64,000 nucleotides of DNA from Prorocentrum cordatum (Eukaryota). Shown here in pieces: positions 13,889-51,224 of this stretch. The notes beneath the pieces are model-generated. The model made no database searches, had not been told where the DNA came from, and saw only the letters and a list, made by a program, of their open reading frames with translations. A program made the position numbers and the translations under genes. Position 1 is the stretch's first letter; each line of letters opens with the position of its first letter. The stretch covers positions 248,001 through 312,000 of the forward strand of contig CAUYUJ010000126.1 in NCBI GenBank assembly GCA_963575745.1, read 5' to 3'.

Positions 13889-16800
13889 TGACACCCCATG
13901 GCTTGACAAAGCAGGCAAAAAAGGGAGGAGGATTGTTTGCAACATCGGCGCAGAGGATGACTGCACGAACGACTGTGCATGCTCGGGCAGGTTGCAGTGA
14001 GGTCGGGCAACGCTCGAGACTCACATCCCCAGGGTGTAACCGAGTTGCGAAGCCTACGTGCCCACCGCAGGCAAACAGCCTGGGGCGAAACGGACGGCGC
14101 AAGAGAAGACAGCCACGCTGCGCGGGAGGCCTTTGCAAATCTTCCAGGACATCGTCGACGAACTGCACAGCTGCCTTGCAGGATGTAAATCCAATTGTAC
14201 CGGCGTCCTCGCATCCTGTGATCGGACAGCGACAGGTTCAGACGCGGGCAGTGTTTGCCCAACTCCGTCACCCTGCCTCCAGTGCTATAGAACTTGCACC
14301 GCGTGCAAACCGCTATAAACGGGCCGCCCGAGCAGTCGAAAGCAACAATCTTGTGCCCCAGCTCCTGAAGAGTCTGGGACTTAGACCGCGCAGGCCGTCG
14401 GGGCGAGCACGTGGCCCAGCGGGGGGTCGCTCAACGCTCGAGCCCCTTAGACAGAGACTGCATTGCCAAGATCTCCCAAACGCGTGCTTGTCCGCAGCCA
14501 GGCGGCTGGCACCGCCAGCAAGACTTCACGCAGAGCGCGCCTTGGAGGTTTGATCTGGACCACCGCGGGAGCACGTGCGCAGCCATCTTCGCGACTTGCC
14601 GCGCAATGATAATCTTCCTCGCCAAAGCGAGCACTTCCTCCGTCGACGGTCTGGGATGCTGTTCGCGGCCTAAGTTGGCCAGGCAATCAGCGTGATAGTT
14701 GCCTAGGCGCAATCGGTATTCTGCCTCGGGCAAGCTGTCGTCAAGCGTTTGGTGCGCACGCGCCTTACATGGATGGCTGACAAACTGCTGTCAGCCTGAG
14801 AGAGCTTGCAACGTGAACCCTGCATGCGCGCTTGCGAGACAGCGCGAGAGGTCTGGCCATCTGCCAATGGTTGACGACCGATTGGCAATCTGAGAAAATC
14901 GTGGTGGGGCCCGCCAGCATATACACCACGGCAGCGACAATCCCGCACTCGGGCCACTGGGGCGTCTGGGACCAGAGGGCCCACAGAGGAGCAAACAACT
15001 CAGCCCCAATGGGGCCATCGGGTTTCAAAACCACACCTCCACAGCCAACCCTGGACAGTTAGTTCACGGACCGGGTGTGAGTGGCTGGGCCCGTCGATGA
15101 ACAGGTCCCCGGAAAGCTCTAACCCTCCTGCTCCTGCGCTGTTTGTCCCCCTGCGGCATAACATTCAGAAATGACGCCGCCATCGGTCAGAGGTCTAGGC
15201 CAGTGGCCCCCTGGGTGCCGGAACAAGCTACGGGAGAAGAGCATGACATCCTCGGTTGAGGTCGCCTCCGCGGCCTCGGCGCAATATTTCCTGCGCTTCT
15301 CCCCTAAAATATCGCCCCTCTCCTCCTGGCATCTCGTGCATGGCCGCGGGCAGTGCAGGAGAGAATCCTCGGCCGCCCCGCGCCGCTCGCACAAAACGCT
15401 GTCGACCTGGTAGCCGAGGGCCTGCGCGCGCACCGGCGCCCAGACGGAGATGGCGGCGGCGCCCCTGATGCAGCCCCTCTGCAGAGGCGTGCACTTGGAC
15501 GACGACGCCGCCGTCTTCATGGTATCAAGATATGCCCTGCCATCGATCCCCCAGTTATCAGCCACGTTCCTCTCCGACGCCCGAATGACGGCCTGCTTCA
15601 GCGGTGCCCCTGCCAGCTGTGGCGCAGCGAGGGTGAGTGAGGTCGGGTTGCCGAAATCGTCGACGACATCTGCGAACGGCTCCATCGTCCAACCCTTCTG
15701 GCTAAAGGAAGGCGCAGCGCTGCCATGGGACCTGCTACTTTCCGCCAAGTGACCGAACGAGATTGTCTGCAGGCCGCCCCCCATCCAGTCCAGAGCCCAT
15801 GCTATGAGAGAGCCCCTTCGGACAACCGAGCATGTCTATACCAAATCTCCTGGCCGTCGCGAACAGCGACGCCCGCCGATCCAAACCGAGCAAAATCGCC
15901 CTCTAAAACCATCATCCCAGGCAACGAGATCAGCCCAGCCGGTGGTTTAATCGTCGAAGCGGCCCCCCTACGAACCTGCGGCAATTCGTGATCCGACATC
16001 CCGAAGACAACGCAACAGCGAAAACTCATGGCATACAACAAACCCGCACGGATGTGCATACGCTTGCCGGTAAACATCTGCTGGCGCTGGAGCCGCCTGA
16101 CCTTCCTCTTGAGAAAGGCCATGCGGGCGCCGAACTTGTTGGACCGACCTGCTTGTCGCCTGGCCAGCCCAGCAGTGGCATCAACGCTTAGGATCGCCGT
16201 GGCCACGAGGCGAGGCCCCGCAAGGGCCCCAAGATGATCCTGGATGGCCTTAGCTACCGCCGCGCTGGATGAGATCATGGCAATCTTACCTGCGGGGATC
16301 CTCGCCTCCATGTCAATCGCGATGACATGGTGTTCAAAATCAGCAGCAGCACAAATGTCCCGCGCAACTCGGATCTTGCGGGCCAACAGACGTGAACACG
16401 CTGTCATCAATAAAGGTATATCGAGCCGTACTGTGTCGTATCGTAGCCATAACCTTGTCATAGGCCTCCAAAGCGGATGCGCGTACATGCGCGGTAGCGA
16501 AAGAGCAGCAAACCACGACCCCTCTGGCCACAACCACGGACCGTCGTTCAAACCAGCAATTGAAGCATAGCGCGGAGCACGGTAAGCAACCAACGTAATA
16601 TAACATACGGCAGGAAGAAGCCCTTGTCGAAGGGCGGGACAAACTAAACAGTTCATTGTATTCGTGCATGTCCCACAAAAGTCCTGCCGCCACCTCCCCG
16701 TCTGAAGCGCCCTGCTCCGCTCTGAGGGCTTGCCTCCGCGCGAGTTCCAGTGCTCCGCGGTGGTACCCAGCCGCGAAGTGGGACCTCTCATGATTTAGCC

Positions 16801-19800
16801 CCCACTGGAGTCCGCGCGGCCTGCGGGCCATGCCCCAAGGCCTGCGCAGACAACAGGAAACACCGATGGGGCGCCATTCTGCTTGCACGTCGGAGAGGAG
16901 GGCGATGAAGACGACGTGGGGCTGAGGCGAAAGGGGGCCCAGTAATTCCACGAGGTAGATGATGATAGAGACGACCCCCGGACTATCATCGCAGAGTAAG
17001 GCGTAGTGCTGCACGTGGAAGCCATCCACACCTACCGCAATGCACGCTTTGCGTTGCTTTGGAAGGATCCCGATGGCATCCGGGTCCAAGAGGAAGGGAC
17101 ACGCGCGTCCTACGCGGGCTTCTAGCTTGCGGCTCACTGGAAGCCTCCCAGTAGTAAGCCCCAGGCTTGTCACTCTCGCTACTCAACATCGCCAGCGGGT
17201 CCGAAGCCGCACAACCTCCCGCCGACAACGTGGCAGTCGGAGTCCAAGCCGCACGATCTCTGAGAACGCTGCGTGCTCGCTTCCCACCTTGGTCTAATGG
17301 TGGCCTCGAGAGCTTCGGAGGCGTCGTTGCCAAGGTCCTTAACGTCGTGAGCCAAGACGTCCGACAGAGGGACCGACTGGTCCCAATTGTACAGGAAACC
17401 TGTAAGCCGCCTAAAGACACGCAGAATCGCCCATGCTGGCACCGATGTTTCCAGGGATATCACACAACTCACCCAAAAGACGCAAACCCACATCTCCAAG
17501 CCTGCCGACAAATGCACCGTCCCAGGCTCAGCAACCTGGCACTGAGCAGACGGGCGCAGTAAAGTTCAGGATGCCTCCGCTGGTTGTCTTTGTTGGCCGA
17601 ACTCTTCCAGCGCGTCTGAGGGTTCTCGCCTTTAGTTCCGCACTGCGGAAGGGTGGCCCCAGAAACCGGACGCAACTCTTGATCGGAAGTGTTTGCCCAA
17701 GACTTGTAAAGAGCATTCAAAAACATCTGGGCCTCATCGATAGAGCCAGCGCCCGCTGCGCGAACAGCGCGACGCCCCATCTGAACGACATCGTCCCACA
17801 TGGGAGGTTCGGGACTGGGTCCAATCGGAGCTTCAATTGGCAGCGGCGGAGGCCGTCGAATCGAATGCCTGCAATTGCGCGAGCCTGGGTGGAAATGCAA
17901 GTCGACTGGGCAGCGCGGGGAAAATCGGCACCCGCGTTCACCTGGATTTCCCGAACGCCATTCGCCGGGCCAGCGGCGCCCAAGAGAAATCGCACTTGGT
18001 CGGAGGCTTCGCCATAAAATAGCGTCAAGCGCCAAACTCTGACCCTGGAGCGGCGTGCCGATATCCGCATTGTCCAGGTCCTCAGGTAGCAGGTTGAAGT
18101 CACCACCTACGAGCGCACCTCCTTCAGCTACCGACATACGTCGCCCCAAACTCGAGGATATCTAGGCGGGCGTCAGAGAGGCCCACCGACGTCGACAAAT
18201 CACACGAGAGAACCGCCGTATAATACCCCCAGGAGGGTGCGCATAGCCAACAATAACTCTATGAGAAACCACTTGAGAACCTTCGGGAGGTGCGCGGGGC
18301 CCCGTGCAGTCCCAGGCCAGGATAGCCACGCCCCCAGACACTCCAGGGCCCTGACCAGGGGCCGCTGGTTCCCAAAAGGCCGCGCCATCCTCGAGCCGAG
18401 CATCGCCAGGGAGCCCTTTTGACGGGGTCCCCGGCGCGCACCATGCGCTCCCCAACGAGCACCACGTGGGCCTTGGGGAGCGCGATCCAATCCTGCATGG
18501 GGCCCCCAGCCGTTCCCATCGACCGTCTGAACGCGCAAGGAAAGCTGCTCCAGGGGGGGGCGGGCGGGCTCCAAGGCCCGAGCTCGGGGGGCGGTAAGAT
18601 CACGCTTTCCGCCCGCGACAGCTCTCGGGATGGAGCGCGGGGCGGCGGGGCTCTCGGAGGGTCGACCCTGGCGGCCCTTGCGCGCGAGATCTCCCCCCCC
18701 CCCGTCGTGCCTTCGCGACGCTTAAAAAATTGCGACGACGCTTCCGACGCCACCGGGACTTGCCGATCGAGGCCACGGCGTCGAGCTGATTTAAAAGCCC
18801 CCCTCAAGCCAAGAAGCTGCTGCGTTGTAATCAGGTGCCCTTTCCCCCCGCCACGGAAGCAGCGGGGGTGGGTGCGTGGGCAACTGCTTCCCAGCTCTGG
18901 CTCGCACATATGCCGGCGACTCCTGCTGCGCTGCCTGCGCTGCCGAAGCCGAGTCGGGCGTGGCTGGCGCCTGGGCCTCAGAGGCTGAAGCGCCTCCTCC
19001 ACCTGGCGTAGCTGGCGCTGGAACACCCTCGGCACCTCCACCGTTGGAGCGTCGCCCTTGCCGCCCCGGGGACCGACGCGCCGCCGCTTCGACTGCAATC
19101 GACCCATGTGGTCAGTATGGGGCTGCTTGACATCTTGAGCTTGTTTGACACAGGGGCTCCGGCAAGTCGGTCGCCAACTTCTTGCTTCGCCAAGATGCTG
19201 CTTCCTCCGCTCGATCTCGTCGAAGTCGGACAGCCGCAACTCCGTCTCCAAAGGGGCGTCGGCCACCAGCTCGCCAAGGTCGATGAAATCGACAAAATCG
19301 AAGGACCTGTCGACAAGCTGCGTGCGCCTGAGGGCGGTCTGGGTGGTCTTCTTCGCGGCCTGCTGCGTCGCCTTGAGCTCCTCCACGTCACTCTTGTACT
19401 TCGTGTCTGCCTGGTTCAAGCCCCGCGCGAGGGACCGGGTGCATTCGCATTGCTTGAGAACTGCGGTCTGCCAGCGCTCGAGCTTCGCAATCTCCAAGGC
19501 GATATTCTTGTCGATGCGACCAACTGCTGCGTGGCTCTGCTGAATCCGCTGATTAACAGGGGTCGCTGGCAGGTTCTCCTCGTGGAGCTGGCTCGCATGG
19601 GCGGCGCCCTTCGCCGCCGCCGTAGCTTGCGAGACAGCGCGGCAAGCTGACGAGGCGAGCTGCGGTGAAGCTCCCACCTCGAGAGGAGCAGGTGGGACGC
19701 CGCTGCCTGGCCCCTCGCCGCCATGCCCCGCAGTTCCATCCGCGCACCTTTTGCCTCCAACGTGCCCGCCGCCCCCTTCTGCGCCTCACGAGGCATGCGC

Positions 19801-20199
19801 GGGGGCGAGGGGAGGCCGCGCGCCAGGGGGCGCACCGAGAACCCATGTCTCCTTCGGGCAAGGCGGGGCGCTGGAGCTCGGCTCGGTGAGGGCAGCCCCG
19901 CAGCGCTTGCAGAACCTCGCCTTGTTCTCGTTATTGGAACAGCCGCATGTCGCGCGCTCGGGCCATCCTTGCCAGTCGCTCCCCGCTGACCGTGCCAGGC
20001 GCGGGAGTCGTGGCCGCGCCACTGACCTCCGCCCCCCCCGTTGCCCCCGCTGCCGTCGCGCCGGGGGTGTCCCATGAAAGAACGACTGAGCGCCGAGCCA
20101 GGCTCGCCCGCTGGCGCCGCGCCGTTCCGAAGTGAACGCCAATGATCGCAGGTGGGGAATGCAGTCCGCCGCGCGAGACCTGCGCCAGATCGGCTAGGG
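13889..20199 (-). mobile_element. Full-length but decayed LINE (Zn-finger ORF1, APE, RT, zf-RVT, RNase H) with relic SL at its 5' end
   Basis: In order on the minus strand: CGCSNNENKARFCKRCG (~19900-19950); coiled coil; APE SGGVAILAW and LVGGDFNL (~18100); RT AVGVDG, WRPIG, LLWDMHEY and FIDD (16403-16414); CERRGAAEDSLLH; RNase H LFIDG (~15095), IFSDCQSVV and GNYHADCLA. 20179-20199 reads ccctagccgatctggcgcagg, 15/21 identical to DinoSL. Confidence 0.88.
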
Positions 20200-26249: not shown

Positions 26250-29100
26250 CGCCTGCCCTCCGTTCGCGCTCCCTCAGTCTTAAGACTTCTACGGCACGCT
26301 GTGCACGGGGCTCCTCGAGCAGAGACGCCTTGCTTTACAGAATTCGCCTACTGCGCTGCCGCTTTCTGCGCAGATTTGCCTCGGACCCAAGGCCCCGATG
26401 TTCCCGTAGCGACCCGATCAGGCCGACCCTCGGGGTCGCGGCTGGCGTCAGACATGCAAACAACGCAGCAGCAGCGCTTCTTCACCTTCTCTGGCAACTC
26501 ATGGGAGCCTCCCATACCATCTCTTTGGCTCTTGCGCATCGACGCAAATCGACGCAAAATCGGCGCTACCTCATCGACTCCCAGACGCTAATCGACACTA
26601 ATCGACGCTAAAGACGGCATTCAGAGAGTATACCAAACTCCAACGATTTGCTACCAAACTGCACCCGAATTTGAATTTGGTCCGTCGTGCGTATTTTCCT
26701 AAGGGTCTGTTCGCCAAGTCTTGGGCCGATGATGCCAACTATCGCACGGAGGGCTCGAGGAAACAGAGTTGCTAGCCTCACCGATGCCGCCGTCAATTCT
26801 TCCCCAATGATCCCAAAGACGGTCTACGCCTGTCGGAAAAATCACTCGTTCTGGCTTTGGACCGCGCCCTCGCGGCCGAAACCGCATCCTCCCTGAGAGC
26901 TGCGGGACTGCAGGTCGAGAGCCAGGGGGCCGCGGCGGCTTTAGGCAGCGAGCGGGGCCCTGACGGATTGCACAGAGCTGAACGGCCCCGACGCAGGAAA
27001 CAGCTGGCCAAGCGGCAGGCGTCCAGACTGGCCAGACTCGCAGGTAGCACAGCCGGCGCGCGCGCGGCGCGCCGAGTGGTCACCACGGGGTTACACATCG
27101 ATCATGGTGATCAGGACCCTGCCATCTCACTGCCGTCCGCCACCGTTTGCCCTCTGGTTTGAGCTCATGTCGTCTTCCGCTCCCATGCGCCGACGAGCGG
27201 CTCGGGCCTGGCCGCGGGCGCTCGAAGAAATCCGAGAGGCTAAGCCTCAGCAGCGGTGGCGGAAGAACAATGAATGGCGCGATGGCGGGAACGATTTACG
27301 TGCTTCTGGCCGCGGGCTGGGGCCCAGAGGGTCCTTGGCACTGGACCCACCCTTGTGGTGACAAGTACGCGGCGTCAGAAGCTGCTTTTTAAGGTGACCC
27401 CGACTGGGAAGAGTTGTTCGAGGTGTTGAGACGATTGATATCTGCCGCAGCATGGGGAGCCTCGCGAAACTTGGGGCGGACAAGTGGAGAGGAGCACTTA
27501 GCACGGTCATGTGTGCAGGATATTGGCCGAGGGATCGGCTTGAAAACGCATGGGTGAAGGTGGATTCCAACGTTTGTCCGAGGTGTGGCCTGGAACCCGA
27601 GACTAGAGGGCAGCACATCCAACTAATGGTCACCCCGACACGCGAAGCCGCTCAGCAAACGCGCCCACATGATGAATCGAACAGGGCAAGGCTGTTTAGT
27701 AAATGCCAATTGTCGAGGTCCGGGTGGTTTCTCCTCCCTTGAGAGACGGGCCTGCACCGCTGCTTGGGCTGCGAGGCGAACGGTCAGACCCCCAGGGTGC
27801 GAGGCGACCCAGGGGCTGGCCAGCCGGGCCCTCGAAGGGGCCGCCCGGCACCCATGCTGCGGGCTCCCAGCGAGCAGTCCCACGGGAAGGGGCTCGGCTG
27901 CCTGAGCCACCCGACGCTCTCATGATCGAGCTCGAGCCCGCGATCCAGGTGGCTTCCGCCCGTGACGCCTGTGCTGTGCGCGGCACCCTTTGGTCCGCTC
28001 CGAACCGAGGGGCGGCCTCCGGCCTGCAGGCGACGCCCCGAGAAGCCCGGGCTCTCGGGCCGCGCTCGGCTCCGCCGCGGCTCCCGGGCGGCTGCCTCGG
28101 CGGGCGAGGGCCAGGGCCCCGGGGCGCCGAGCTCGGTCCAGGCGTCGGGGGCCTTCGGGGGCCCGTTGCCAGGGAGGCGGCAGGGGATCAACCGAGGCGA
28201 GAGTCTTGCTTTGAAGGAGGTCCTGCAGGCCACTCCTGGCCGCGATCTTTCTCATGCTGCCGATAGCGCCTGCGTCGTGAGTGGGCTGTACAATCTGAGA
28301 TCGAAGGCCTGCTGGAGGCTAAGGCAGAATCGCAATGTGTGGAACCTTGTGCGAGAGCCGACGGGGAGCCGAGGCGTCCAAGCGAGGTCCGACGCCATGT
28401 CTCGGAAGACCTGCTGGAGAGGTGCCGCCCCGAGCAGCGCGCGCTTCTCGCTGTCAGCGACTTGGCTGGTAAGTCAGCTGAGAGGTTCTGCCCTGATGCC
28501 CAGGTGCCTCCAGGAACTGCCGAATCTCCCAAGGGGCTCGAGGCAGAAGCGAGGGTCATTCGGAAGCGGCTGACTTCCATCCTATCCTGCATGCCTGCCT
28601 CCGCTGGAGCAGGGGAGAAGGCGGCGGCGCAGGGAACGGCCAAGCAGAAGCTCGCCCTGCCAGCGGCCGGCAGAGGCAGTGCACCTGCTGAGTGTCACGG
28701 GGTCGTGGGGCTGTCGCCGTCGCCAGTGGCACCGTCGTACTTGTGGTTCGGAAGCCGCCACCGGGTGCAAATCATCAAACATTCCAGGGCTCCGCGCGCC
28801 CTGCCGTGCCCCTGGACTCGTCGCGTGAGGCGGGGCCTCGTAGGCGGGGTGTCTCGGCCCACCCTTCTCACAGGATAGGGTGGTGGGAGGCGGGGGTGGG
28901 CACGCAGAAGGAACTGATGCTCGCCTGCTCGAGGTGCGGAGGTCTTGGCACACACCACCCCTGCTCGACTGGCAAGCTTGCCATGCGAGCCTCCCACACG
29001 TAGTGGGCTCGAGTACTTGAAGGATCTCGGGAAAGGATGGGCTCCAGGCCACACGCAGCTGGCTAAGAAGGTCAACGTCCTGCGGTGATCGTGGAGGGAG
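26250..29100 (+). mobile_element. Decayed, internally deleted LINE (APE remnant, post-RT, zf-RVT, RNase H, Zn finger) downstream of (CCT)n at 26040-26200
   Basis: FFTFSGNSW; ARAWPRAL; AGYWPRDRL...CPRCGLEPET; GPLPGRRQGINRGE, AADSACVV, NRNVW; HPSH...CSRCGG. Collinear with ORF2 of the 44-51 kb element. Confidence 0.8.
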
Positions 29101-33465: not shown

Positions 33466-33503
<38 letters not shown>

Positions 33504-34483: not shown

Positions 34484-34656
34484 GTCGAGTGTTGCTAGAA
34501 GTGCCCCTGACCCAAGGTGCCCCCAGCTTTTCGCTTTGTTTTGGGGCCCCTGGGGCCCTCTGGGCCTCGTGAAGGGTGCTCTGGAGGCCGTCTGGGCCAC
34601 ACGGAGAATCATGGGGTCACCTTGGGCCAGGGGTACTTCTAGCAACACCCGACCAG
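34484..34656 (+). mobile_element. 173-nt MITE that reads as a GT-AG intron (introner-like)
   Basis: ~42-bp TIRs (gtcgagtgttgctagaagtgcccctgacccaaggtgcccca / tggggtcaccttgggccaggggtacttctagcaacacccgac, 4 mismatches). CAG duplicated at 34481-83 and 34654-56. Junctions cag|gt and cag|g. Confidence 0.8.
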
Positions 34657-34904
34657 GGGAGCACGGACGAGCTGCGCCGGCCGCCAGAGAGCCGGGCGCC
34701 GTCCCGGCTCGGCGGCCACTCCTCTCCAGAGGAGCGGGAGCGGCTGCACGGCCGGCCGCGCCGGGAGGCCCGCGCGGGCCACGCGCACGGCTGCGCTCGC
34801 GCACACTTTCTGCTCTCGGGCCTGCCTCCTGCCCCCCGCTCCCCCTCCACGCCCTCTCCCGCTCCCCCTCCTCCTCTCCTCCTCCCTCCTCCTCCTCTCC
34901 TCTC

Positions 34905-34979
34905 TCTCCTCCTCCTCCTCCTCCTCCTCCTCCTCCTCCTCCTCCTCCTCCTCCTCCTCCTCCTCCTCCTCCTCCTCCT
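34905..34979. repeat. Pure (CCT)n tract at the 3' junction of the retrocopy
   Basis: Direct reading. Confidence 0.97.
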
Positions 34980-35006
34980 GTATCGTAGTACACGGAGGGG
35001 CCAAAA

Positions 35007-36306
35007 TCAAGCCAGCGTTGCGACTCCTACCGAGACTGTGGAAGAACTATGGCTAGACACGTCCAGGGCCTTGGAATGAAGACCAATACGATGCTGACAT
35101 TCGGCCGGAGGCGTGGCTTCGTCGCTATGGTCGTCCTCCCCGAGGAGGCCTCCAACAGAACACCCTGCTCGCCCCAGATGCTTGACGAAGAGGTTCAAGA
35201 AGCTAGTGCCACTGCGCGTGCGGCCATACACGACTTTCAGCATGACCTTACCCAAGGTAAGCCACTGTGGAGCCTCGTCAGCGTCACTGCTCGACGCGTA
35301 GTGGTACCATCCTCTCCTGGTTGCCAGTGCCCAAGACCCTGTGATGTTTATCTCTTGGAAGTAGATATCCTGCGCAACTCCCGCCCATTCGAAGCGCCTC
35401 GGCCACCACGCGAAGTAATGTGTGTTCAGGGCCCTGCCCGCGAGGGATATGTATCAACACATGCTGGCCCACTTTCATCAGGTCATATCGCTCGCCATAC
35501 ATATTTTGAAGGTGGGGATCTCCAAAGCAGTCGCCGTGCCCGAGACACTGGGCGTCGGGCTGGGCGTCGGACTCGGCGTCGGACTCGGCACGGGCTGGGC
35601 GTCGGGCTCGGCGTCGGGCTGGGCGTCGGGCTGGACGTCGGACTGGGCGTGGGACTGGGCGTCGGACTGGGCTCCGGGCTGGGCGTTTGACTGTCCTCAA
35701 GTTGGAACGCGATCTCCCGAATATATGGTTGATAACCAGTTGAGGTTTGCGTGATCACCAGTCGAAGATGCTGCACTGGGGTGTCGTAATCGACGTCGAA
35801 GTCCTGCACGTTATTAATTCCCGTGGTCACTGATCCTAGCGAAACAAAAACAGAGTTGAATGTTCCGACTTGTGCCGTTGACGTGTAAAGCACCGCCTTT
35901 GTAACATCATGTGTCGTATCGCCCCAATGTTGGATTCGAATACCTTGCAGAGTGTACTCCGAGCCAAGATTAAACTCGATCCACCATGCGTTATGGTACC
36001 GGGGTGCCCCCCAGCATTCCAAAATGTGTTTGTATTACCATCCATAGTGTTTGTCCCAACTTGAGTTGAATGAGCTGTTTCCCAATCGACGATCCAAGAC
36101 GTGTCCTGGGACCACGCGACTGTCTCCATACCGCGGTTCGTGATGTTGAAGAACTCCTGCTTGAGCTTTCCAGTGCCCAAGCTTGCCGAGTTCGTAAGGT
36201 CGTTCTTGTTGGACATGTCCTGGGTCATGGACACCACATGCAACGCGGCCCCTCCTCCAACTGAAGACAACAGCCAAACAACGGTAATCACGAGAGAATG
36301 GGCCAT
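35007..36306 (-). CDS. Intronless retrocopy: putative secreted protein with F5/8 type C (discoidin/CBM32-like) domain, Pro/Ser/Thr linker and GDPH-motif (vWD-like) C-terminal domain; several frameshifts as assembled
   Basis: Signal-like MAHSLVITVVWLLSS; DGNTNTFW, WWIEFNLGSEYTLQGIRIQ and LRLVIT...IREIAF; (PSPT)n; GDPHLQNMYGERYDLMK...GGLLGEDDH; stop at 35007-35009. One frameshift lies in a G run at ~36007-36012. SL 140 nt upstream of the ATG. Confidence 0.8.
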
Positions 36307-36433
36307 TGTGCCGGAAAAGACTGACCCGTAATCACGGAGAAACGAGCTCGAATATTCGTGTGTGTGTGTGTGTGCGTGTGTTCATATAGCGGCCGGCCGA
36401 TCCACACAGATGCTCCAACCGGAGGAACAGCTG

Positions 36434-36468
36434 CTTGAGGCAAGCGCTTGAGCCAAAATGGCTACGGA
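36434..36468 (-). other. Genomic DinoSL (36447-36468, 22/22) followed by a relic SL (36434-36446)
   Basis: Reverse complement reads TCCGTAGCCATTTTGGCTCAAG-cgcttgcctcaag. Confidence 0.97.
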
Positions 36469-37767
36469 CCTCCTCCTCCTCCTCCCTCCTCCTCCTCCTC
36501 CTCCTCGTCCTCCTCCCCTCCTCCCTCCTCGGAGCTCTGCTGCACTGGTCGTGCAAGCACAATGCCAAGTGGAAGAAAGAGGGCGAGACCCGACGTCAGG
36601 GGCCAACCCTGGAAGGGCAAAGGAGTAACCTTCTCAACCTGGAGCTTGGTACCAGGCACCACTCCTGATTCCGCTCTTGCTCTCGCTGCTGCTGCTCCAG
36701 CCCCTATTGCTCCATCCTCCCCCCCCACTTCTGGCCTCTGGATGACCCCGACCATGTTGATGGGCGCGGTGAAGAAGCTGAGCACCGACTGGGCAGTCGC
36801 CCCTAGCATCAACCTGCTGGGTTCGCTCTTGCGGGCGGTAGGCTAAGATCCGGAACGACAAAACCAAACCTCAATTCAAAGCTTACTACAAAGCAAACGG
36901 GTGCCGCAGGTGCAACGTGTACGCCCACCTGGTCTGGTCGCTGAGGGGAACGGATAAGCAGATGGGCCAGTCGAAAGATCGATGGTCCTCCTCTCCTTCC
37001 TGCTCTCCTCCTCCTCCCTCCTCCCTCCTCCTTCTTTCCTCCAACTCCAAGTTCTCCTCATCCTCAACCTCATCCTCAGCCTCCTCATCCTGTATCCTTC
37101 GTCGTCCCTCCTCCCTCGCCCGAACCCCCCTCCTCCGCATTGGCAATTCGGCTCTGACCACAACTCCGAGGAGAATCCGGCCGCGGCGACGAGAAGCCCC
37201 GACGAAGCCCAAGACGACGAACGAGCAACACGCACTCACACCCATGGGGGTGACGGAGAGGGCTACGGGTGCGTGTTGTCGGATGGGCCCCCCCCACCGC
37301 TCGAACAGGAGCCTCCCCCGGGGTCCGACGACCCGCACCCATACCCATAGGCAGCAATCATCCCTCCTCCCCCCGACCCCGCTGTGGGTATGCGTGTGTG
37401 CTGTTCTTTCGTCGCAAGAGAGGGCGGACGCCATCCCAGACGGCTGAACCTCAAACCTCAATCGCGAACTTCCATCCTCGTCTTCCTGTGGCATGAAAGA
37501 AACGGGCACTTAAAGAACAGACGTGTTATTGCCTCAGATTTCCGTGCGTTGGGCACGCAAAAACCCTCCAAGAAATTGCCCGTGTAACCGAATTCAGGTG
37601 TTGCTAATTAGCAAGGAGGCCTCGTTTGTTAACGAACCCATCCAGACTATCCAAACAAATCACTCCACCACGGACTTTCCCTGTGACACGGTCTTCCATC
37701 CGGAGCCGCTTGCCAACAAAGCTGGGGTCCGCGAAGGTCCCGTCGGCCCGACGAGGGCCGAGACCCG

Positions 37768-44001: not shown

Positions 44002-44023
44002 TCCGTAGCCATCTTGGCTCAAG
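44002..44023 (+). other. DinoSL at the first nucleotide of the retrotransposon (21/22)
   Basis: TCCGTAGCCATCTTGGCTCAAG versus DCCGTAGCCATTTTGGCTCAAG. Confidence 0.95.
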
Positions 44024-44163
44024 ATGCCTAGTTCCGCAGGGGAACAAGTGGATACCGCTAGTCCGCGGCCAGTGCCAGGGCTCTCTAGCCCGACAGTTTT
44101 GTTCAACACTCCGTGTGCCTCCTGCTGCCCGCAGGTGAGCTTTCTCTGTTCCTCAGCTCGTCC

Positions 44164-45389
44164 ATGGCGCCTCCGCAGCAGCGCAGCGGCTACGTCAAGT
44201 GCTACTCCTGCTCGTACGCCTGGAACTGGAAGACCAAGCAGACGTGCTACTGGTGTGGCAAAGCTTTGGCGCCGTGGACAGATGCCCCGCCTCCGGTGCA
44301 AGGTGCTTGGGCGGCCCGTGTCTCAGCCGCAGCCCAGGCCGAGGCCAAGTGCACCCAGCAGTCCAGCCCCGAGGGAGGTTGGGAGCCGTGGTCATCATGG
44401 CCCAATTCCCGCCGCCGCCGTGGCAAGGGCAACGGCAAGGACCAAGACGACGACTGGTGGGCCAGCAAGAACGACACCCCCAAGGCTCGCTCCGCCGAGG
44501 ACATCTTGGCGGAGCTCCAGGCGATCGCCCCCCACATCGACAAGGCAGCCATTGACGGCATCAAGTCGCAGATTCCGCCGCCCCAGCCGCAGAAGCCAGC
44601 CGACCTCAACGACATCTACAGCCGCGCCCAGGCTACGGAGCGCCGCTGCAAGAACAACCTGGAGAGGCTGCTGGAGAGCGAGCAGAAGGCGCTCAGCTGG
44701 TACACAGAGCGCAAGCAGGCGTCGGAGGAGGCCGCCTACAAGTTGGCTGAAGCCCAGGCGGAGGCCCAAGCGGCTCTCGACGCACTCCAAGCCGCCCGCA
44801 AGGGCGGCACAGCTACTTCTACGCCGTCGCAGCAGAACCCGACCTTCAACCTCACCAGCCTCCTCGAGGACGGCGACATCTCCATCGAAGCGGGTGCAGC
44901 GTTCGATCTCCAAGGCCTCGACATCGACGACAGCGACCGCCAGGCATGGGAATCCCTGCAACAGCGCTTTGCCACGGAGCTCAAGGCCAAGGTCACTGAG
45001 CTCTTCGGCAACACCGCCAGCCGCATCAGCCAGCTCCGAGCAGAGGCCAGCACCATGCGCACGCGCTTCGCCTCCAAGCGGCAGCGCGCTGACGAGGATG
45101 GGCACGCCAGAGAGGGAGGTGGATCACCGCCCGCCGCCTCGGCTGCAGCAGGCGAACCCCCAGCGGCAGCCGCAGCGGATGCTGAGGGCACTGCGCCCTC
45201 TCCGCCAGCGGCGCCAAGCGATGAGCCTCCCGCACCTGCTGCTGGCGTTTCTTCTGACGGCGGCTACGCCACACTGCCTGTACCTGCACTCAAAAGGACC
45301 CCGACCTCGAAGACAAGGCACAGAAGATGCTCAACCAGATGCGCAAGCCCACTGCTGCCGCCGCCGCTGGACCGCAGCAGCCTCTTTAG
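44164..45389 (+). CDS. LINE ORF1: RanBP2-like Zn finger and coiled coil (end inferred across a 1-nt frameshift at ~45292)
   Basis: MAPPQQRSGYVKCYSCSYAWNWKTKQTCYWCG; heptad region ERRCKNNLERLLE...QAALDALQAA. The -1 frame from 45291 gives KDPDLEDKAQKMLNQMRK...PL* (TAG 45387-89). As assembled, the frame instead runs on into the endonuclease. Confidence 0.7.
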
Positions 45390-45480
45390 CCGACTACAAC
45401 CCGACCCTGGACGGAATGGTGAGACGGGGCGCCTACCGTCAGAGACCACGATCTACGACAACCCACCAATCATCAACACA

Positions 45481-48400
45481 ATGGACGCAGTCCTCGACCC
45501 GTTCGACGAGCTGGCCGAGTTGGACGCCCACATCGATTTCGCAGTTTCCGAGCAGTACGCTACCGCCCCGCCCGAGACGCTGTCCTCGGTAGGGGGCGAT
45601 GAGGCGGCACAGACCGTCGACCCCGTGGTATGGGACCCAGGGCAGCCGCAGCGTGCTACGCGGTCCGACCCTGATGCCGCTCCGCCCGAGACGCTGTCCT
45701 CGGTAGGGAGCGATGAGACGGCGCAAGCTGTCGACGTGCATGTGGTACAGGAACCAGGGGAGCCGTCGCCAAAGGCAAACCCTGATGCCGCCCCGCCCAA
45801 GACGCAGCCCTTGGTAGGGGGCGATGAGATCGCGAAAGCTGTCGACACGCCCGCAGGGAAAGGGCCATGGAAGCCCAGCAGCCCGAGAGCCGACCCTAGT
45901 CCCGCCTACCAAGACGAAGGCCCTACGAAGCCCCCGCTGTCAGACCATTCCCTGTTCTTCTCCAACATTACTCAATGGGGACCACAGTCGGAGAAATGGT
46001 TGGCAGGACCAGGCAAGCAATATCAGATGGTAGCATTAGTTGAAACACACATCTCGCCTGGAAAAGCGCCGCCCATGTACGACAAACTAGCAGCGGATGG
46101 TTGGAGAATATCATCGACTACGGCCACTCCTACCAGTAGATCAGACGGCGGCAACACGGGTGGCGAGATCATCTTATCCAGGTACCATGTCCAGGCCACC
46201 ACGTTCAACCACCTCCGTGACCTTGCCATTTCCCAGCGCAGGCCTGACCCGTTCCTCGGCTTCACGCCCATGGTATGGCACAGACGTTCTGGCAACTTGG
46301 TTGTTATTGCCGCGTATCTGGAACCCCACAGGCAGATCGAGGGTGCAGTACACGATAAGCTACTTTCGCTGGGAGCGTTCGTTACTATGCTCACAGACCC
46401 TTGGATCATCCTGGCCGATTGGAACATGACACCTGAGCAGCTTGCAGCGACAGAGTGGCTCGCCAAATGGAATGCTACCATCGTGCGAGCACCTGGATCC
46501 GCCACTTGCGACAAGGGCCAGGGACTCACGCTTGATTTCGCATTGGTCAAGACTGGCATCGAGCACACGATCTCCATTCGCCAGTGCCCCACAGTACCCT
46601 GGGCCACCCACGTTGGCCTTGAAGTTCGAGCAGGCAGTGCAGACCCCTGGTGGTATCAGTCGATCGATACCCCCAAGTCCTTCCCCATAGTGGACAGACC
46701 CAGGATTCCGCCAGACCCCAACAGCAAGACCGCCATCAAGAAACGTAAAACAGCTGAAGCTCGAGCAGCACGTCTCCGTGATCTACCTCCTGAACTCCAA
46801 CAAGCAGCAGCACAGCTTCAGCCACAAGGCGAGCCCGCAGCACAGGAACCTATCCCCTACGCCATCCCGATGGACTTGCGGGAAAACAATGGCAGGAAGC
46901 GGTACCCACACGTTGTAAGCAGCCACACGCGCACTTCGTGTACAGACACTGGGTGCACGACGCCGACGTCCTCAACCTCAAGTACGCCAAATGGGTCACG
47001 GCGCTCGAGAACACCATGATCAGCCACCACCAGATTGACCCGAAGGCAGCTGCAACATACACTGGCCGAGCTCAGGGCTACCAGTTATCTTGGAAGAAGA
47101 CAGCTGCTGCCCCAGGCCGCGTACACGTACACGACCCACATTCGGAATGGTGGGCAATTACGCTCACCCTCATCAAGCGCTACGCCGCGCTTCACGACAA
47201 GCCCAAGCACGCAGCGCTTATGCAGCAGCAGGCCACCATCATCCAGCAGCGCGCGGACCACTTCAACACTCACATGCACGACCTTCAGTTCGAGAAGGAT
47301 GAGGACACCATCTTCCGCTGGTTTGCGCTCGTCTGGGCCCCGCACCTGGACAAGGATGACACCGACGACTTGGTCACCATTACCGCTACCTGGGCCTCCA
47401 GAGCCCTCTCGGCCGCCCTCGCCAAGTCCAAGAGGGCCTACGGGGCTTGGCTCGCCCAGCAATGGAAGCACCGCCCTGGAGTACTACACGCCCATGTCAA
47501 GCCAGCACCCGCACGTCACATCGAGGCCTACACGGCCAACCTGACCATCGCTGACCCCGCCGTCATCATGGACAACAAGAAGCAACAATGGCAGCAAGTA
47601 TGGCAAGCCACCGAGACCTCCGACGACATCCTCCAGGCCCTGTCAAAGGCCAAGGCAGCAGCTGCTCATCAACCGCTCGAGCCCATCACAGCCGAGATCG
47701 TACACCGCATTCACGGCCGCATGCCACCCAGTAAAGCACACGGAGTTGACGCCCTAGGACCTCGCGACCTCCATCGATTACCAGAACCAGCAGTCGAAGC
47801 TTATGCAGATATCCTCAACTCAGTGGAGCAAGCAGGCATCTGGCCACTACAAATTTCAGGCACCATTGCAGCTCTCGCCGCCAAGAAGTCTGGAGGCGAC
47901 AGGGTCCTCGGCATGCTCCCTCATATGGCCAGACTCTGGTCTCGCATTAGATCTACCGCATCGGCAGCCTGGACGCAAGGTCTGGACGACTTTTGGACTA
48001 CAGCCATCAAAGGCTCTTCAGCTCTCCAAGCCGCCCTACATAGGGCCTTGTTAGACGAGACAGCCTCAGCACTTGGCATACAGTCGGCCACCTTGCTATT
48101 AGACATCCAGAAATTCTACGACAATATCAAGCTCGCCAACCTCATCATGGTCGGCCTCAACTGCGGCTTTCCCCCCATCCTTCTATTATTGGAGGTGCAG
48201 CTATACCTGGCGCCCAGATTCTTGCGCAGTCGGCAATGGGTGAGTATGCCTATCTTCGCCTCCAAAGGCATCATTGCAGGCTCCCCTCACGGCACCACCC
48301 TGGCACGACTTATTTTGCTACCAATTATTCGACAAGCCCAAGCTCAGGCAGAGCTTGCCCAGGTGTGGACCTTCGTCGACGACACTGCTCTTCGAGTCGA

Positions 48401-50876
48401 AGGAGTCCTACGTGCTTTACAGAAGCACCTCTCCCGTGCCGCCAGGACGCTCTGCGACGGATTAAAGGAGTTCGAGCTGCCTATCTCAGACAAGACCGTC
48501 CTCATCGGCTCCACTCCCAAGGTCCGCCACTCGCTAGCCAAGAAGATGCGACAGTACGACATCCCAGTTACTGCGACCTCCACGGCCGTCGACCTTGGAG
48601 TTGACGCGGCCGCGGCTACTCGACGTGTACAAGCCAAAGCCGGGAAGCGACAGATCTCAGCCACAGCCAGGTTTCGCAAGATACACCGACTACGGAGCAC
48701 TGCACAGCAGGCCCGAATCTCAGCTGGACTGTGGCGCACTGGTGCTCTCCCAGAAGGAGTATTCGGTCATCAGGTTCACGGCCTCGCTCGGCACGCTCTA
48801 CTACGCTGGCGGCGTCAGGCCGCCATTGCAGCCACGGGCGCTGCCGCAGGCCGATGCCTCGCCTCCCTCCTCGGCGCCACTTTTGACGGCATGGGCCCAG
48901 GAGTTTCCCTAAGGATCGAGTTCATCGAGGCTTGGCTTCAGCGCTGGATGCGCCACCCGAGCACGCACGCCAGGATCATCAGAGCCTGGCCAAGGATCAA
49001 GACCACCTTGCTCGCCGCTGGCCCCAAGCTGTGGTGCGAGGTCAAGGGCCCCACAGGCGCGGCCATCGCGACCCTGCTGGAGGCTAGTTGGGAGCCGACC
49101 TCAGCTACCAAGTGGAGGCGTACGAAGGACGGCTACATCGAGGAGTGGAACCTCCCCCCTGCCGACGACCCCGACCTCCTCGACGCCGACATTCACACAG
49201 TATTGCAGGACCTCTGCGAGGATTTACACAGGCTCCTCTGGACGCAGGCCGCTACGCATGCCCATGGAGACACGCTGGCTGGAGGCGCAGACATGGTCAC
49301 TATCCGCATTGAACAAAGGAGGTTCCTCGCAAACGGCGACTTCAGCGACTGGGCCCTCAACAACACCATCATCAGCGGAGGACAGTGGACCAGAGACCGC
49401 CTCCACAACGCGGGCTACCAGATCGACAGGAACTGCGACCGCTGCAACGCTGGAGTTCCTGAAACCTTGTTTGACCGAATGTGGCAGTGCGAGGCGAACG
49501 TTGGGCCCGAGTTTGAGGCCAGCGACGAGCTACTGCCGCGAGCCTTGGCGGGGGCCGACGCCGACCCCGCCTTGTGGCTCCGTGGCATTCCCTCTGTTGC
49601 TCTCACTACGCCCACGTTCGAGCCATTGACTGGGAGGGACGGGTGGGAGTTTGTTGGTGCGGTGCGGGAGGGTTTGCCGTCCTGGGAAGGTGCTCGTAAC
49701 GCAGAGGGTGAGTTGTTTCTTTTTGGTGACGGGTCTGGCGGTGCCTTTTCTGACGACGTCAGGCGACGTCGCGTCGGATCTGGCCTCGCGGCCCTCCGTT
49801 GGAACCCTCCCTCGGCCTCCTGGACCCTCCGCGCGGGCCTCCTTGCCCCCCTCCCAGGCCCCCGCCAGACCGTCCCAAGAGGAGAATTATATGCGTTTTG
49901 CCTGGCACTAGAGACGTGCCATCAGGATTTCACGTTTGTTACCGATCACCTAGCCTTGCAGCGTGGTTGGCAGAATGGCAGATGTCTCAGGCCAGGCAGC
50001 CTCAGAGGTAAGAATAAGAATGGAGATCTCTGGCTGAGAATTCGGCATCTCGTGCAGGATCGACCTTGCGGCGTCTCCTCGGTCACGGTGCTCTGGACCC
50101 CATCTCATGCCGATCCCCAGACTCTTCACGGTTTTCAGAAATTCCTAGCTCTCGGCAATCAGCAAGCCGATGAGCTTGCGGGAAGCGCGGCCCACAAGTC
50201 GGCCACCCTTGCCCTCCCGCCTGTGCCCAGGACTGACGAATACGATGCTATCGCAGCGATTGTCCGACAGCGGGCACGACTAATCCTACGTTCCTTAGGA
50301 AAGAATTCAGAGCCTCGAGGACTGTGGCCAGAGAGGCAACCCACGCAGGAGGCAGCCCCTCGTTCTCTGTTGCAGACCGCGATCGCGGCTTCACAGCACA
50401 AATTCGAGCGGTGTGCAGACAAATGGCGATGCTGTGCCTGCCTCATCATCGTCGATGCTTGCCAGGTTATTCCAGCCGCCGCCACGGAGTGTGTACCGCC
50501 TTGCCCCCTTCCCGAGTTTGCTGCTTGTGGCGAGGTGCTGTGGTCGAGGGGTCCCCGTGTGATCAGTGGCAAGGCGATACACCCCTCCCACACGTTGGCC
50601 ACCATCCCCAAGTGGCAAATGTTCTTCTGCGTGAAGTGCGGCCATACGGCCATACACCAGGTCAAAAGCTTACAGTTCCCTTGCCCTCTCACCCACCAAG
50701 TGGGAGAGCGCAGGGCCCTGGGACCCACTGGCAAAGGCCTCGAAAACCTCAGCAGGATCAGGCGAGGCCTCCATCCGTCCAGATCGGGTCCCAGCAAGTC
50801 TGTTCTAGAGGCTATGCATGTTTCGGCAGCCGAAGCCGCGATCGTTTCTCACGCGGCTGGCGCTGCCTCTGAGTAA
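45481..50876 (+). CDS. LINE ORF2 polyprotein: APE endonuclease, RT, zf-RVT, RNase H, C-terminal Cys/His fingers (one frameshift at ~46883; start codon inferred)
   Basis: APE: FSNIT, LVETH, AAYLEP, ILADWN, TLDF, WATH. RT: KAHGVD, DRVLGML, LLDIQKFYD, GIIAGSP, FVDD (48372-83). CDRC...ETL...WQC. RNase H: FGDGSG, RGELYA, VTDH, NGDLW, WTPSH, GNQQADELA. Then WRCCAC and HPSH...FCVKCG. Confidence 0.92.
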
Positions 50877-50884
50877 ATTGCGAG

Positions 50885-50963
50885 GCCAGGGGGGCCTGTC
50901 GCGGTGTGCCGTGGGATGTCGCCCCCCACGGCTCTCCGAGAAATTCTGGATGGCCCCCCTGGC
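50885..50963 (+). other. Structured 3' UTR element of the LINE
   Basis: Perfect 12-bp stem gccaggggggcc (50885-96) / ggcccccctggc (50952-63) enclosing an 8-bp hairpin gccgtggg/cccacggc and a tccgagaa/ttctgga hairpin. Confidence 0.75.
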
Positions 50964-51224
50964 GTCTCTGGGTTCCCGAACGGACTACGTCCGATTGCTC
51001 CACTCCACTCCTCCTCTTCCTCCTCCTCCTCCGTCATCCTCCCACCTCCCCCGAAAATAGCCAATACCTTCTGAAGGCATGCGAGAGCAATCGACAATAC
51101 CCCCCGACGGCGACGACGATGATACCATTATGGGAGTCGAGGGCCGAGGATCTGATGTCGAACGTCGATGATCCAGGATCAAGGGTGGTAGCCCCGAAAG
51201 GCCAGAGGAGGGCTCAGAGGTGCC

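What the first reader, a model, noticed from the sequence alone, without database searches (positions are those of the whole stretch)
34980..36468. SL-capped host mRNA retrocopy inserted in the same microsatellite type
Seen: a perfect DinoSL, a 140-nt 5' UTR, an intronless ORF and only ~27 nt of 3' UTR with no poly(A), bounded by (CCT)n on both sides. Known: dinoflagellate genomes recycle processed cDNAs and retain relic SLs. Inference: the (CCT)n-associated LINE is a candidate for the enzyme that does this in trans. Caveat: the retrocopy has GAG on its sense strand, opposite to the LINEs, so it may reflect another subfamily or template switching.
Basis: partly seen in the sequence, partly recalled or inferred. 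Interest (0 to 1): 0.85.

Follow-up and report, generated by a model that had tools for sequence, protein, structure and literature searches.

The report
Processed gene copy inside CCT microsatellite
A reverse-transcribed and now frameshifted copy of a dinoflagellate lectin-like mRNA, still carrying its complete spliced leader, sits inside a CCT repeat of the type that neighbouring LINE retrotransposons also occupy, which gives a clue, but no proof, about which enzyme recycles mRNAs into these genomes.

Summary
Window 34980-36468 (minus strand) contains a perfect 22-nt DinoSL, a 140-nt 5' UTR, a 1300-nt coding region, a 27-nt 3' UTR and no poly(A). It is set in phase between (CCT)n arrays. The coding region runs collinear with full-length homologues and has no intron-sized gaps, but it is not an open ORF: it changes frame at least three and probably four times.

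It is a decayed processed copy of an mRNA for a secreted discoidin + Thr/Pro/Ser-linker + GDPH/VWD-like protein. A worn second leader relic 3 nt behind the SL suggests the parent was itself a retrogene. I did not find the parent.

The (CCT)n-associated LINE is real. One young full-length copy (44002-51002) begins with a 21/22 DinoSL and lies between CCT arrays. One old full-length copy and one truncated copy show the same arrangement. All three LINE copies have CCT on their sense strand; the retrocopy has AGG. No LINE tail sequence is shared.

"LINE acts in trans" therefore stays an untested lead (about 0.3). Capture at a break in a fragile purine/pyrimidine tract fits about equally well. Retrocopies with DinoSL are well known; the microsatellite landing site is the new part.

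The parts
34821..34979 (.). (CCT)n array on the + strand, which is (AGG)n on the copy's sense strand. It abuts the copy's 3' end. The left part is imperfect; 24 perfect CCT units span 34908-34979.
34980..35006 (-). 27-nt 3' UTR ending directly at the microsatellite, with no poly(A)
35007..36306 (-). Coding region of 1300 nt (ATG 36306, TGA 35009-35007). It is collinear with full-length homologues P0001 and P0002 up to their C-termini, with no intron-sized gaps, but it is read in several frames.
36007..36010 (-). Frame change 1 (1 nt missing), in a G6/C4 run inside the discoidin domain
35545..35600 (-). Frame change(s) 2 inside the 12-nt repeat that encodes the Thr/Pro/Ser linker. The TPSP reading moves one frame near 35595, and the next domain starts in yet another frame near 35545, so there are probably two indels.
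35369..35371 (-). Frame change 3 (one extra G) inside the C-terminal domain
35732..36174 (-). F5/8 type C (discoidin) domain, split by frame change 1
   Evidence: PF00754, E 6.5e-8, profile 26-119 of 127
35010..35541 (-). C-terminal GDPH-containing, VWD-like domain of a dinoflagellate family. The copy keeps 35 of 37 invariant columns.
36307..36446 (-). 140-nt 5' UTR, containing a (CA)n run
36434..36443 (-). Degenerate relic of an older spliced leader (TTGCCTCAAG, 9 of 10), 3 nt behind the intact SL
36447..36468 (-). Complete 22-nt DinoSL (TCCGTAGCCATTTTGGCTCAAG), the 5' end of the copy
36469..36530 (.). (CCT)n array on the + strand, abutting the copy's 5' end and in phase with the left array
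44002..51002 (+). Comparator LINE-A, a full-length non-LTR element. It has an SL-like 5' end at 44002-44023 (21 of 22), a zinc-finger/coiled-coil/EEP-like frame at 44089-47019, an RT frame at 46794-50876, a 3' UTR of about 125 nt and no poly(A). CCT arrays lie at 43867-44001 and 51003-51050 on its sense strand.
13894..20198 (-). Comparator LINE-B, an old decayed relative. It has a decayed SL-like 5' end at 20198. AGG arrays on the + strand (13401-13893, 20199-20350) give CCT on its sense strand.
26824..28973 (+). Comparator LINE-C, four collinear weak RT-frame matches downstream of CCT array 26039-26201. The junction with the array is not established.

Best explanation
This is a decayed processed retrocopy (pseudogene).

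Origin of the RNA. A mature, SL-trans-spliced mRNA for a secreted lectin-like protein was reverse-transcribed from about 27 nt past its stop codon to the very first nucleotide of the spliced leader. The protein has a signal peptide, a discoidin domain, a Thr/Pro/Ser linker and a GDPH/VWD-like domain. The gene was itself already a retrogene.

Insertion. The cDNA was fixed inside a (CCT)n.(AGG)n microsatellite. The + strand reads (CCT)n then antisense cDNA then (CCT)n, so the most likely mechanism is priming of first-strand synthesis from a 3'-OH in the CCT strand. Priming was on an internal site of the mRNA rather than on its poly(A). That is a target-primed or break-primed reaction by a non-LTR-type reverse transcriptase.

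Later decay. The copy picked up three or four small indels and does not encode the protein.

Shown: the anatomy, the collinearity with homologues, the frame changes, the flanks and the orientation. Inferred: the priming strand, the internal priming and the source of the enzyme.
For: - Perfect 22-nt DinoSL exactly at the boundary with the repeat. It is followed by CGC rather than a GT intron, and Rfam finds no RNA gene in 33500-45000.
- A 9-of-10 leader relic lies 3 nt behind the SL. About 5.1 such matches are expected in the whole window on both strands.
- The coding region is collinear with the 377-aa and 411-aa homologues P0001 and P0002 (48-59% identity per segment) from near the N-terminus to the natural stop.
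- Frame changes lie inside conserved domains.
- 35 of 37 invariant family columns are kept, which fits a young pseudogene.
- LINE-A in the same window has a single frame change in about 6.7 kb, against 3-4 in 1.3 kb here. A generally indel-ridden assembly is therefore unlikely.
- The arrays are in phase on both sides, and arrays make up only 2.8% of the window.
- There is no poly(A) and the 3' UTR is 27 nt. Three of 3 related transcripts from metagenomes carry at least 151, 246 and 458 nt after their stop.
Against: - No parent gene was found. There is no second copy in the window. The best database relatives are 59% identical. Metagenome loci are 50-55% identical. Intron loss and 3' truncation relative to the parent are therefore inferred, not shown.
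Two of them lie in a tandem repeat and one in a homopolymer, which are places where assemblies also err.
- No target-site duplication can be read.
- The priming strand is deduced from the orientation alone.
Confidence: 0.72

Rival explanations
1. The (CCT)n-specific, SL-headed LINE family of this genome supplied the endonuclease and reverse transcriptase in trans, and its target preference put the host cDNA into a CCT array.
For: - Both sequences in the window that match the full DinoSL (within 3 mismatches) start exactly at a CCT/AGG array: the retrocopy and LINE-A.
- LINE-A, LINE-B and probably LINE-C lie at such arrays.
- LINE-A has a TSD-like repeat of about 27 nt made of imperfect CCT units, 25 of 27 identical.
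- The LINE also lacks poly(A).
- The family is young. A protein named for Prorocentrum cordatum (P0041) is 88-98% identical to LINE-A segments.
- Decayed LINE-B shows the lineage was present long before as well.
- Reviews state that the enzyme behind dinoflagellate retroposition is unknown (passages read).
Against: - The orientation is opposite. 3 of 3 LINE copies have CCT on the sense strand (primer would be the AGG strand). The retrocopy has AGG on its sense strand (primer would be the CCT strand).
- No LINE tail or any other shared sequence besides the SL was found.
- There is one retrocopy only.
- CCT/AGG arrays are frequent here, with 13 + 17 array segments in 64 kb.
- The endonuclease assignment of the LINE is itself weak (Exo_endo_phos E 6.1e-4, below the Pfam cut-off).
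Confidence: 0.3
2. Endonuclease-independent capture. The purine/pyrimidine mirror repeat (CCT)n.(AGG)n is break-prone. A free 3' end at a break primed reverse transcription of a nearby mRNA, or captured a cDNA, with the reverse transcriptase coming from any retroelement. The shared microsatellite then reflects fragile DNA rather than a shared enzyme specificity.
For: - The orientation is opposite to the LINEs.
- The 3' end is truncated, with no poly(A).
- No visible microhomology at the 5' junction, which reads ...ACGGA|CCTCC on the + strand.
- These are the hallmarks reported for endonuclease-independent L1 insertions (recalled from the literature, not read here).
Against: - The 5' end is complete to the first SL nucleotide and both junctions are clean and in phase. 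Break repair usually erodes ends.
- Fragility of CCT arrays in this organism was not shown by any search.
Confidence: 0.3
3. It is a functional, expressed retrogene. On this reading the frame changes are assembly errors.
For: - No stop codon lies inside the homologue-aligned frames.
- 35 of 37 invariant columns are kept.
Against: - Three to four frame changes, one of them (the extra G near 35370) outside any long repeat or long homopolymer.
- LINE-A in the same window runs 3.9 kb and 2.9 kb without a break.
Confidence: 0.15
4. It is an assembly artefact: cDNA contamination or a chimeric read.
For: None specific. The block looks like a cDNA.
Against: - It is embedded in phase between two parts of a microsatellite.
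- It lacks poly(A).
- It carries frameshifts that a fresh cDNA would not have.
Confidence: 0.02

Closest known systems
DinoSL-tagged retrogenes and retrocopies of dinoflagellates (Slamovits & Keeling 2008, cited in passages read; Song et al. 2017, PMC5585692; PMC6050394; PMC12014239; passages only)
   Same: A genome-encoded spliced leader at the 5' end of an intronless gene copy. A second, worn relic behind it points to repeated rounds of retroposition.
   Different: - The passages I read give no junction anatomy, no microsatellite landing sites and no link to a defined element.
- Most Symbiodinium retrogenes were reported within 10 kb of their parent (PMC5585692). No parent lies in this 64-kb window.
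- This copy is dead, whereas the literature stresses surviving retrogenes.
L1-mediated processed pseudogenes of mammals (recalled; mentioned in passages of PMC12014239 and PMC5585692)
   Same: A host mRNA copied by a non-LTR machinery, intronless and dead on arrival.
   Different: No poly(A) tail, no A/T-rich target, no readable duplication. The 3' end lies 27 nt after the stop codon.
Microsatellite-specific non-LTR retrotransposons (for example R1-clade elements targeting TC, AC or ACAY repeats, recalled; PMC4640811 abstract start in the listing says target-specific elements integrate into rRNA genes and microsatellites)
   Same: LINE-A and LINE-B sit in one repeat type, in one orientation, with repeat units at both ends.
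   Different: Clade membership was not tested. Here the elements also start with the host spliced leader. The repeat is CCT.
Endonuclease-independent LINE-1 insertions at DNA lesions (recalled)
   Same: 3' truncation, no poly(A), no clear duplication.
   Different: The 5' end here is complete. Break-proneness of the site was not shown.
SL-gene-targeting elements SLACS/CZAR/CRE and NeSL-1 of trypanosomatids and nematodes (recalled)
   Same: A link between non-LTR elements and spliced-leader biology.
   Different: Those elements insert into SL RNA genes. Here the SL is at the 5' end of the element's or the mRNA's own copy, and the target is a microsatellite.

Membership tests
DinoSL-tagged processed retrocopy | DinoSL encoded in genomic DNA directly 5' of a gene's UTR | tested here: met
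   22 of 22 at 36447-36468, minus strand
DinoSL-tagged processed retrocopy | The SL is not part of an SL RNA gene (no intron or Sm-site context) | tested here: met
   The SL is followed by CGCTTGCC, not GT. No Rfam family matches in 33500-45000. A 140-nt UTR and a coding region follow.
DinoSL-tagged processed retrocopy | Coding region without introns | tested here: met
   Collinear tblastn to P0001 and P0002 with no intron-sized gaps. Whether the parent has introns could not be tested.
DinoSL-tagged processed retrocopy | An identifiable parent gene elsewhere | tested here: not met
   No second copy in the window. The best relatives are 59% and 55% identical. No genome was held.
Classical (L1-type) processed pseudogene | 3' poly(A) tail | tested here: not met
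   No T run of 5 or more in the first 200 nt on the + strand. The copy ends ...GATAC next to AGG repeats.
Classical (L1-type) processed pseudogene | Target-site duplication | tested here: inconclusive
   Both flanks are perfect CCT units in phase, so any duplication of up to about 15 nt would be invisible.
Insertion made by the CCT-associated LINE family (in trans) | Same target sequence as the LINE | tested here: met
   CCT/AGG arrays lie at both ends of the copy, of LINE-A and of LINE-B.
Insertion made by the CCT-associated LINE family (in trans) | Same orientation relative to the target strand | tested here: not met
   LINE-A, LINE-B and LINE-C have CCT on the sense strand. The copy has AGG on its sense strand.
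Insertion made by the CCT-associated LINE family (in trans) | A LINE-derived 3' tail or a shared junction motif | tested here: not met
   blastn with word size 7: nothing is shared between 50400-51002 and 34980-35200. Only the SL is shared.
Non-LTR retrotransposon (LINE-A as such) | Reverse transcriptase domain | tested here: met
   RVT_1, E 2.6e-8, above the cut-off. A 1310-aa alignment to P0039.
Non-LTR retrotransposon (LINE-A as such) | APE-type endonuclease domain | tested here: inconclusive
   Exo_endo_phos, E 6.1e-4, 20.0 bits, below the 24.5-bit cut-off.
Functional retrogene | Uninterrupted reading frame | tested here: not met
   Three to four frame changes.

The most novel reading that the evidence does not exclude
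In this Prorocentrum-like genome, (CCT)n.(AGG)n microsatellites are the landing pads of an SL-headed LINE lineage. The same machinery is what recycles SL-capped host mRNAs into the genome. On this reading the opposite orientation of the host copy arises because host mRNAs are primed at the second (CCT-strand) nick, through AGG-rich patches in their 3' UTRs. That would name the long-unknown enzyme and target of dinoflagellate mRNA recycling.
Probability: 0.2. Interest if true: 0.8.

Novelty: new member of a known kind. Interest (0 to 1): 0.5.

Why it matters
A large share of dinoflagellate genes are retrogenes tagged by relic spliced leaders. Passages in reviews from 2017, 2018 and 2025 state that the enzyme and mechanism are unknown, with LTR elements, LINEs and even retroviruses all proposed.

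This locus offers junction-level anatomy of such an event: a complete SL, no poly(A), a 27-nt 3' UTR, and insertion in phase in a CCT array. SL-headed LINE copies occupy the same repeat type nearby.

One locus proves nothing. It does turn the open question into a simple genome-wide count of flank type, orientation and 3' junctions of all SL-bearing loci in one assembly.

Tried and rejected
- Reads: the look-up of sequencing runs listed 20 runs holding the stretch or a part of it, 18 of them 0.26-0.34 of its 31-mers (the other two 0.12 and 0.08); six poly(A) metatranscriptomes are among the 18, and none holds half or more. These shares were never laid, so they show neither expression of this locus nor a parent. 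My estimate that 0.3 would fit a parent about 3-4% diverged is arithmetic only.
- Parent search: two protein searches and one metagenome scan (loci L001-L003) gave only 45-59% relatives.
- Independent SL loci: the exact DinoSL occurs in 119 stretches of viral contigs. Nearly all are AT-rich giant-virus cassettes and are not comparable. Of the 4 GC-rich loci (L050, L052, L087, L116), 0 have a CCT/AGG array directly upstream.
- Composite patterns of repeat plus SL: 0 matches in viral contigs. This collection is not dinoflagellate DNA, so the result carries no weight.
- Template switch from LINE RNA to mRNA: rejected, because no LINE tail is present at the copy's 3' end.
- The 455-nt block 36531-36985 between two CCT arrays, as a possible LINE fragment left by twin priming: no similarity to LINE-A, no profile hit, no Pfam hit.
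- Pairwise BLASTP of LINE-A against LINE-B frames was not significant on its own. Only the profile HMM gave E 3e-5 and 0.006.
- A fuzzy-regex scan for decayed leaders timed out. It was replaced by boundary-only alignments.
- Literature: searches, with passages, showed no report of microsatellite targets for DinoSL retrocopies or of SL-headed LINEs. I saw listings and passages only. bioRxiv supplements were not read.
Full report
**What is there**

On the minus strand, window 36447-36467 matches the 21-nt DinoSL core perfectly. None of 100 shuffles gave a match. With T at 36468 it is the full 22-mer TCCGTAGCCATTTTGGCTCAAG.

Reading downstream on the minus strand gives:
- a 140-nt 5' UTR (36446-36307);
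- an ATG at 36306;
- 1300 nt of coding sequence ending in TGA at 35009-35007;
- 27 nt of 3' UTR ending at 34980.

There is no poly(A): no T run of 5 or more in the first 200 nt of the + strand.

On the + strand the block is preceded by (CCT)n at 34862-34979 (39.7 copies) and followed by (CCT)n at 36469-36530 (20.3 copies). 24 perfect units end at 34979 and 5 perfect units begin at 36469, so the repeat phase runs straight across the insert. CCT/AGG arrays make up 1774 of 64000 nt, 2.8% of the window.

**The coding region**

It is not an open frame. Three-frame translation and tblastn with two full-length homologues show the reading passing through several frames. The homologues are P0001 (377 aa, from a metagenome) and P0002 (411 aa, named F5/8 type C domain-containing protein of Prorocentrum cordatum).
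- Near 36007-36010 one base is missing in a G6/C4 run, inside the discoidin domain. Pfam F5_F8_type_C (E 6.5e-8) starts at profile position 26 in the second frame, with the missing start in the first frame.
- Inside the 12-nt repeat that encodes the Thr/Pro/Ser linker (35545-35600), the TPSP reading moves by one frame near 35595, and the next domain begins in a third frame. That makes probably two indels.
- Near 35370 there is one extra G.

1300 leaves remainder 1 on division by 3, which fits -1, -1, -1 (or +2), +1.

Apart from these breaks the copy is collinear with the homologues from near the N-terminus to their natural C-terminus (...VSVGVATLA-stop against ...VALDAVASLE-stop and ...LSVAMASLS-stop). 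There are no intron-sized gaps and no stop inside the aligned frames. It keeps 35 of 37 invariant and 26 of 31 nearly invariant columns of the C-terminal domain family.

**What the gene is**

The conceptual protein has four parts:
- a hydrophobic N-terminus;
- a discoidin domain;
- a TPSP linker;
- a C-terminal domain beginning GDPHLQN.

The C-terminal domain defines a dinoflagellate family: 32 hits, best 59% identity, with N-terminal modules that vary between discoidin, CBM96 and laminin-G-like. A profile of 18 members matches the VWD-rich Fc fragment of IgG binding protein (E 2e-6; a single-sequence hint). I therefore call it a secreted lectin-like protein with a GDPH/VWD-like domain.

**Signs of an RNA origin**

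- The SL is followed by CGC and then TTGCCTCAAG, which is 9 of 10 of the leader's last ten bases (36434-36443). About 5.1 such matches are expected in the whole window on both strands. One lying within a few bases behind the SL on the same strand has a chance of the order of 10^-4 to 10^-3 (my arithmetic).
- This is the known 'leader plus worn relic' pattern. It suggests that the parent was already a retrogene.
- The SL is not followed by GT, and Rfam finds nothing in 33500-45000, so this is not an SL RNA gene.

**Is it dead?**

I think so, with reservations.
- The neighbouring LINE-A runs 2.9 kb and 3.9 kb without a frame break, one frame change in about 6.7 kb. A generally indel-ridden assembly is therefore unlikely.
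- However, two or three of the breaks lie in a tandem repeat or a homopolymer.
- I could not check reads.

**The parent**

Not found.
- There is no second copy in the window by blastn or tblastn.
- The best database relatives are 59% identical.
- The three metagenome loci are 50-55% identical.
- Those three related transcripts carry at least 151, 246 and 458 nt after their stop codon, against 27 nt here.

This weakly suggests that the copy is truncated at its 3' end, meaning reverse transcription started inside the 3' UTR.

**The LINEs**

LINE-A
- The only other leader match in the window (21 of 22, CCATCTTGG) lies at 44002-44023 on the + strand, directly behind (CCT)n at 43867-44001.
- It heads a 7-kb non-LTR element. 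One frame (44089-47019) holds a CxxC...CxxC zinc finger, a coiled-coil region and an EEP-like part (Exo_endo_phos, E 6.1e-4, below the cut-off). A second frame (46794-50876) holds RVT_1 (E 2.6e-8) and a faint RNase H match.
- The stop is followed by a 3' UTR of about 125 nt ending ...GATTGCTCCACTCCACT, then CCT-type units at 51003-51050. There is no poly(A).
- The 27 nt before the element and the 27 nt after it are 25 of 27 identical. Both end in CCGT, so the first five SL bases overlap a duplication-like repeat. That is either microhomology at the 5' junction or a short 5' truncation.
- A protein named for P. cordatum (P0041) is 88-98% identical to four LINE-A segments. The window therefore comes from that species or a close relative, and the family is young.

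LINE-B and LINE-C
- A profile built from LINE-A's RT frame and four relatives, searched against all 965 window ORFs of 40 aa or more, detects two further elements.
- LINE-B lies on the minus strand: 17038-16643, E 0.006; 16299-15952, E 3e-5; the hits are collinear.
- LINE-C lies on the + strand: four collinear weak hits from 26824 to 28973, with spacing that fits the profile.
- There is also a single hit at 7397-7690 (E 0.0017).
- LINE-B starts at 20198 with CCTAGCCGATCTGGCGCAGG, a decayed leader. The boundary alignment scores 9 with background p 0.0105, which is not significant after 38 tests.
- LINE-B lies between AGG arrays on the + strand (20199-20350 and 13401-13893), which means CCT on its sense strand.
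- LINE-C lies 620 nt downstream of CCT array 26039-26201. That junction is not established.

**Orientation**

For LINE-A, LINE-B and LINE-C the sense strand carries CCT, so the strand that primes first-strand synthesis would be AGG. For the retrocopy the + strand reads (CCT)n, then antisense cDNA, then (CCT)n, so the primer would be the CCT strand. Nothing besides the SL is shared between LINE-A's ends and the copy's ends.

**Mechanism**

The best-supported account is this. A mature SL-capped mRNA of an already retroposed gene was copied from an internal site 27 nt past the stop up to the first SL base. The cDNA was primed from, or joined to, a 3' end in the CCT strand of a microsatellite. The copy then decayed.

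Which enzyme did it remains open. The LINE family is a fair candidate, for these reasons:
- it occupies the same repeat type;
- it also lacks poly(A);
- its copies are also complete to the SL;
- it was active both before and after the retrocopy's insertion.

The opposite orientation and the absence of any LINE tail speak against a simple trans reaction at the LINE's first nick. Priming at the second-strand nick is one way out. Capture at a break in a triplex-prone purine/pyrimidine tract is another. I rate these two about equal.

**Literature**

- Passages in PMC5585692, PMC6050394 and PMC12014239 say that DinoSL-tagged retrogenes are abundant and that the mediating enzyme is unknown. PMC6050394 favours LTR Ty1/copia. 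PMC12014239 does not rule out retroviruses.
- Passages in PMC8045281 and PMC7245778 describe relic leaders and LINE content but no insertion-site rule.
- PMC10666404 (passages; section 18) gives 59.7% G+C for P. cordatum and a hybrid Illumina plus PacBio MaSuRCA assembly. The window's G+C, about 0.43-0.72 per kb, is compatible. I do not know which assembly the window comes from.
- I saw no report of microsatellite targets for SL retrocopies or of SL-headed LINEs in searches. I read listings and passages only.

**Verdict**

The object is an ordinary member of a well-known class. The landing site, the missing poly(A) and the SL-headed, CCT-associated LINEs nearby are a useful and cheaply testable lead on an open question. 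They are not evidence that the LINE is the enzyme.

Noticed in passing
window 43867-51050: Full-length LINE-A begins with a 21-of-22 DinoSL and lies between CCT arrays. A 27-nt duplication-like repeat (25 of 27) overlaps the first five SL bases. A single frame change separates the EEP-like frame from the RT frame near 46884-46908. Segments are 88-98% identical to a protein named for Prorocentrum cordatum (P0041).
   Followed up: partly
window 13401-20350 (minus strand element): LINE-B is an old, decayed relative of LINE-A with the same layout: a zinc finger, a coiled coil, GDFN and FIDD motifs seen by eye, and profile hits at E 3e-5 and 0.006. Its decayed leader-like 5' end contains the same ATCT variant as LINE-A. 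That raises the question of whether the leader is inherited as part of the element rather than added anew.
   Followed up: partly
window 26039-28973 and 6703-7690: Two further weak LINE remnants lie on the + strand, each downstream of a CCT array. One gives four collinear hits between 26824 and 28973. The other gives a single hit at 7397-7690 (E 0.0017). Their junctions with the arrays are not established.
   Followed up: partly
window 36531-36985: A 455-nt block lies between the retrocopy's right CCT array and a further CCT-type array (36986-37091). It may be a second insertion in the same original microsatellite. It shows no similarity to anything tested.
   Followed up: partly
loci L004-L122 (IMG/VR contigs): The exact 21-nt DinoSL occurs in 119 stretches of viral contigs. 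Nearly all are AT-rich giant-virus bins. The leader sits about 45-50 nt behind an AAAAATTGA-type motif at the head of many genes, so these viruses encode the host leader behind their own promoter. A literature search showed no obvious report in its listing.
   Followed up: partly
window 3256-4886, 39356-40497 and 40903-42028: Arrays of an 89-90-nt satellite occur at three places. To my eye the printed consensus of the 39356-40497 array reads as the reverse complement of the 41185-42028 one, which would make them an inverted pair about 0.5 kb apart; I ran no comparison to confirm this.
   Followed up: no
proteins P0001-P0038: The C-terminal GDPH domain forms a dinoflagellate family with interchangeable N-terminal sugar-binding modules: discoidin, CBM96 and laminin-G-like. 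The profile resembles VWD domains of FCGBP (E 2e-6).
   Followed up: partly
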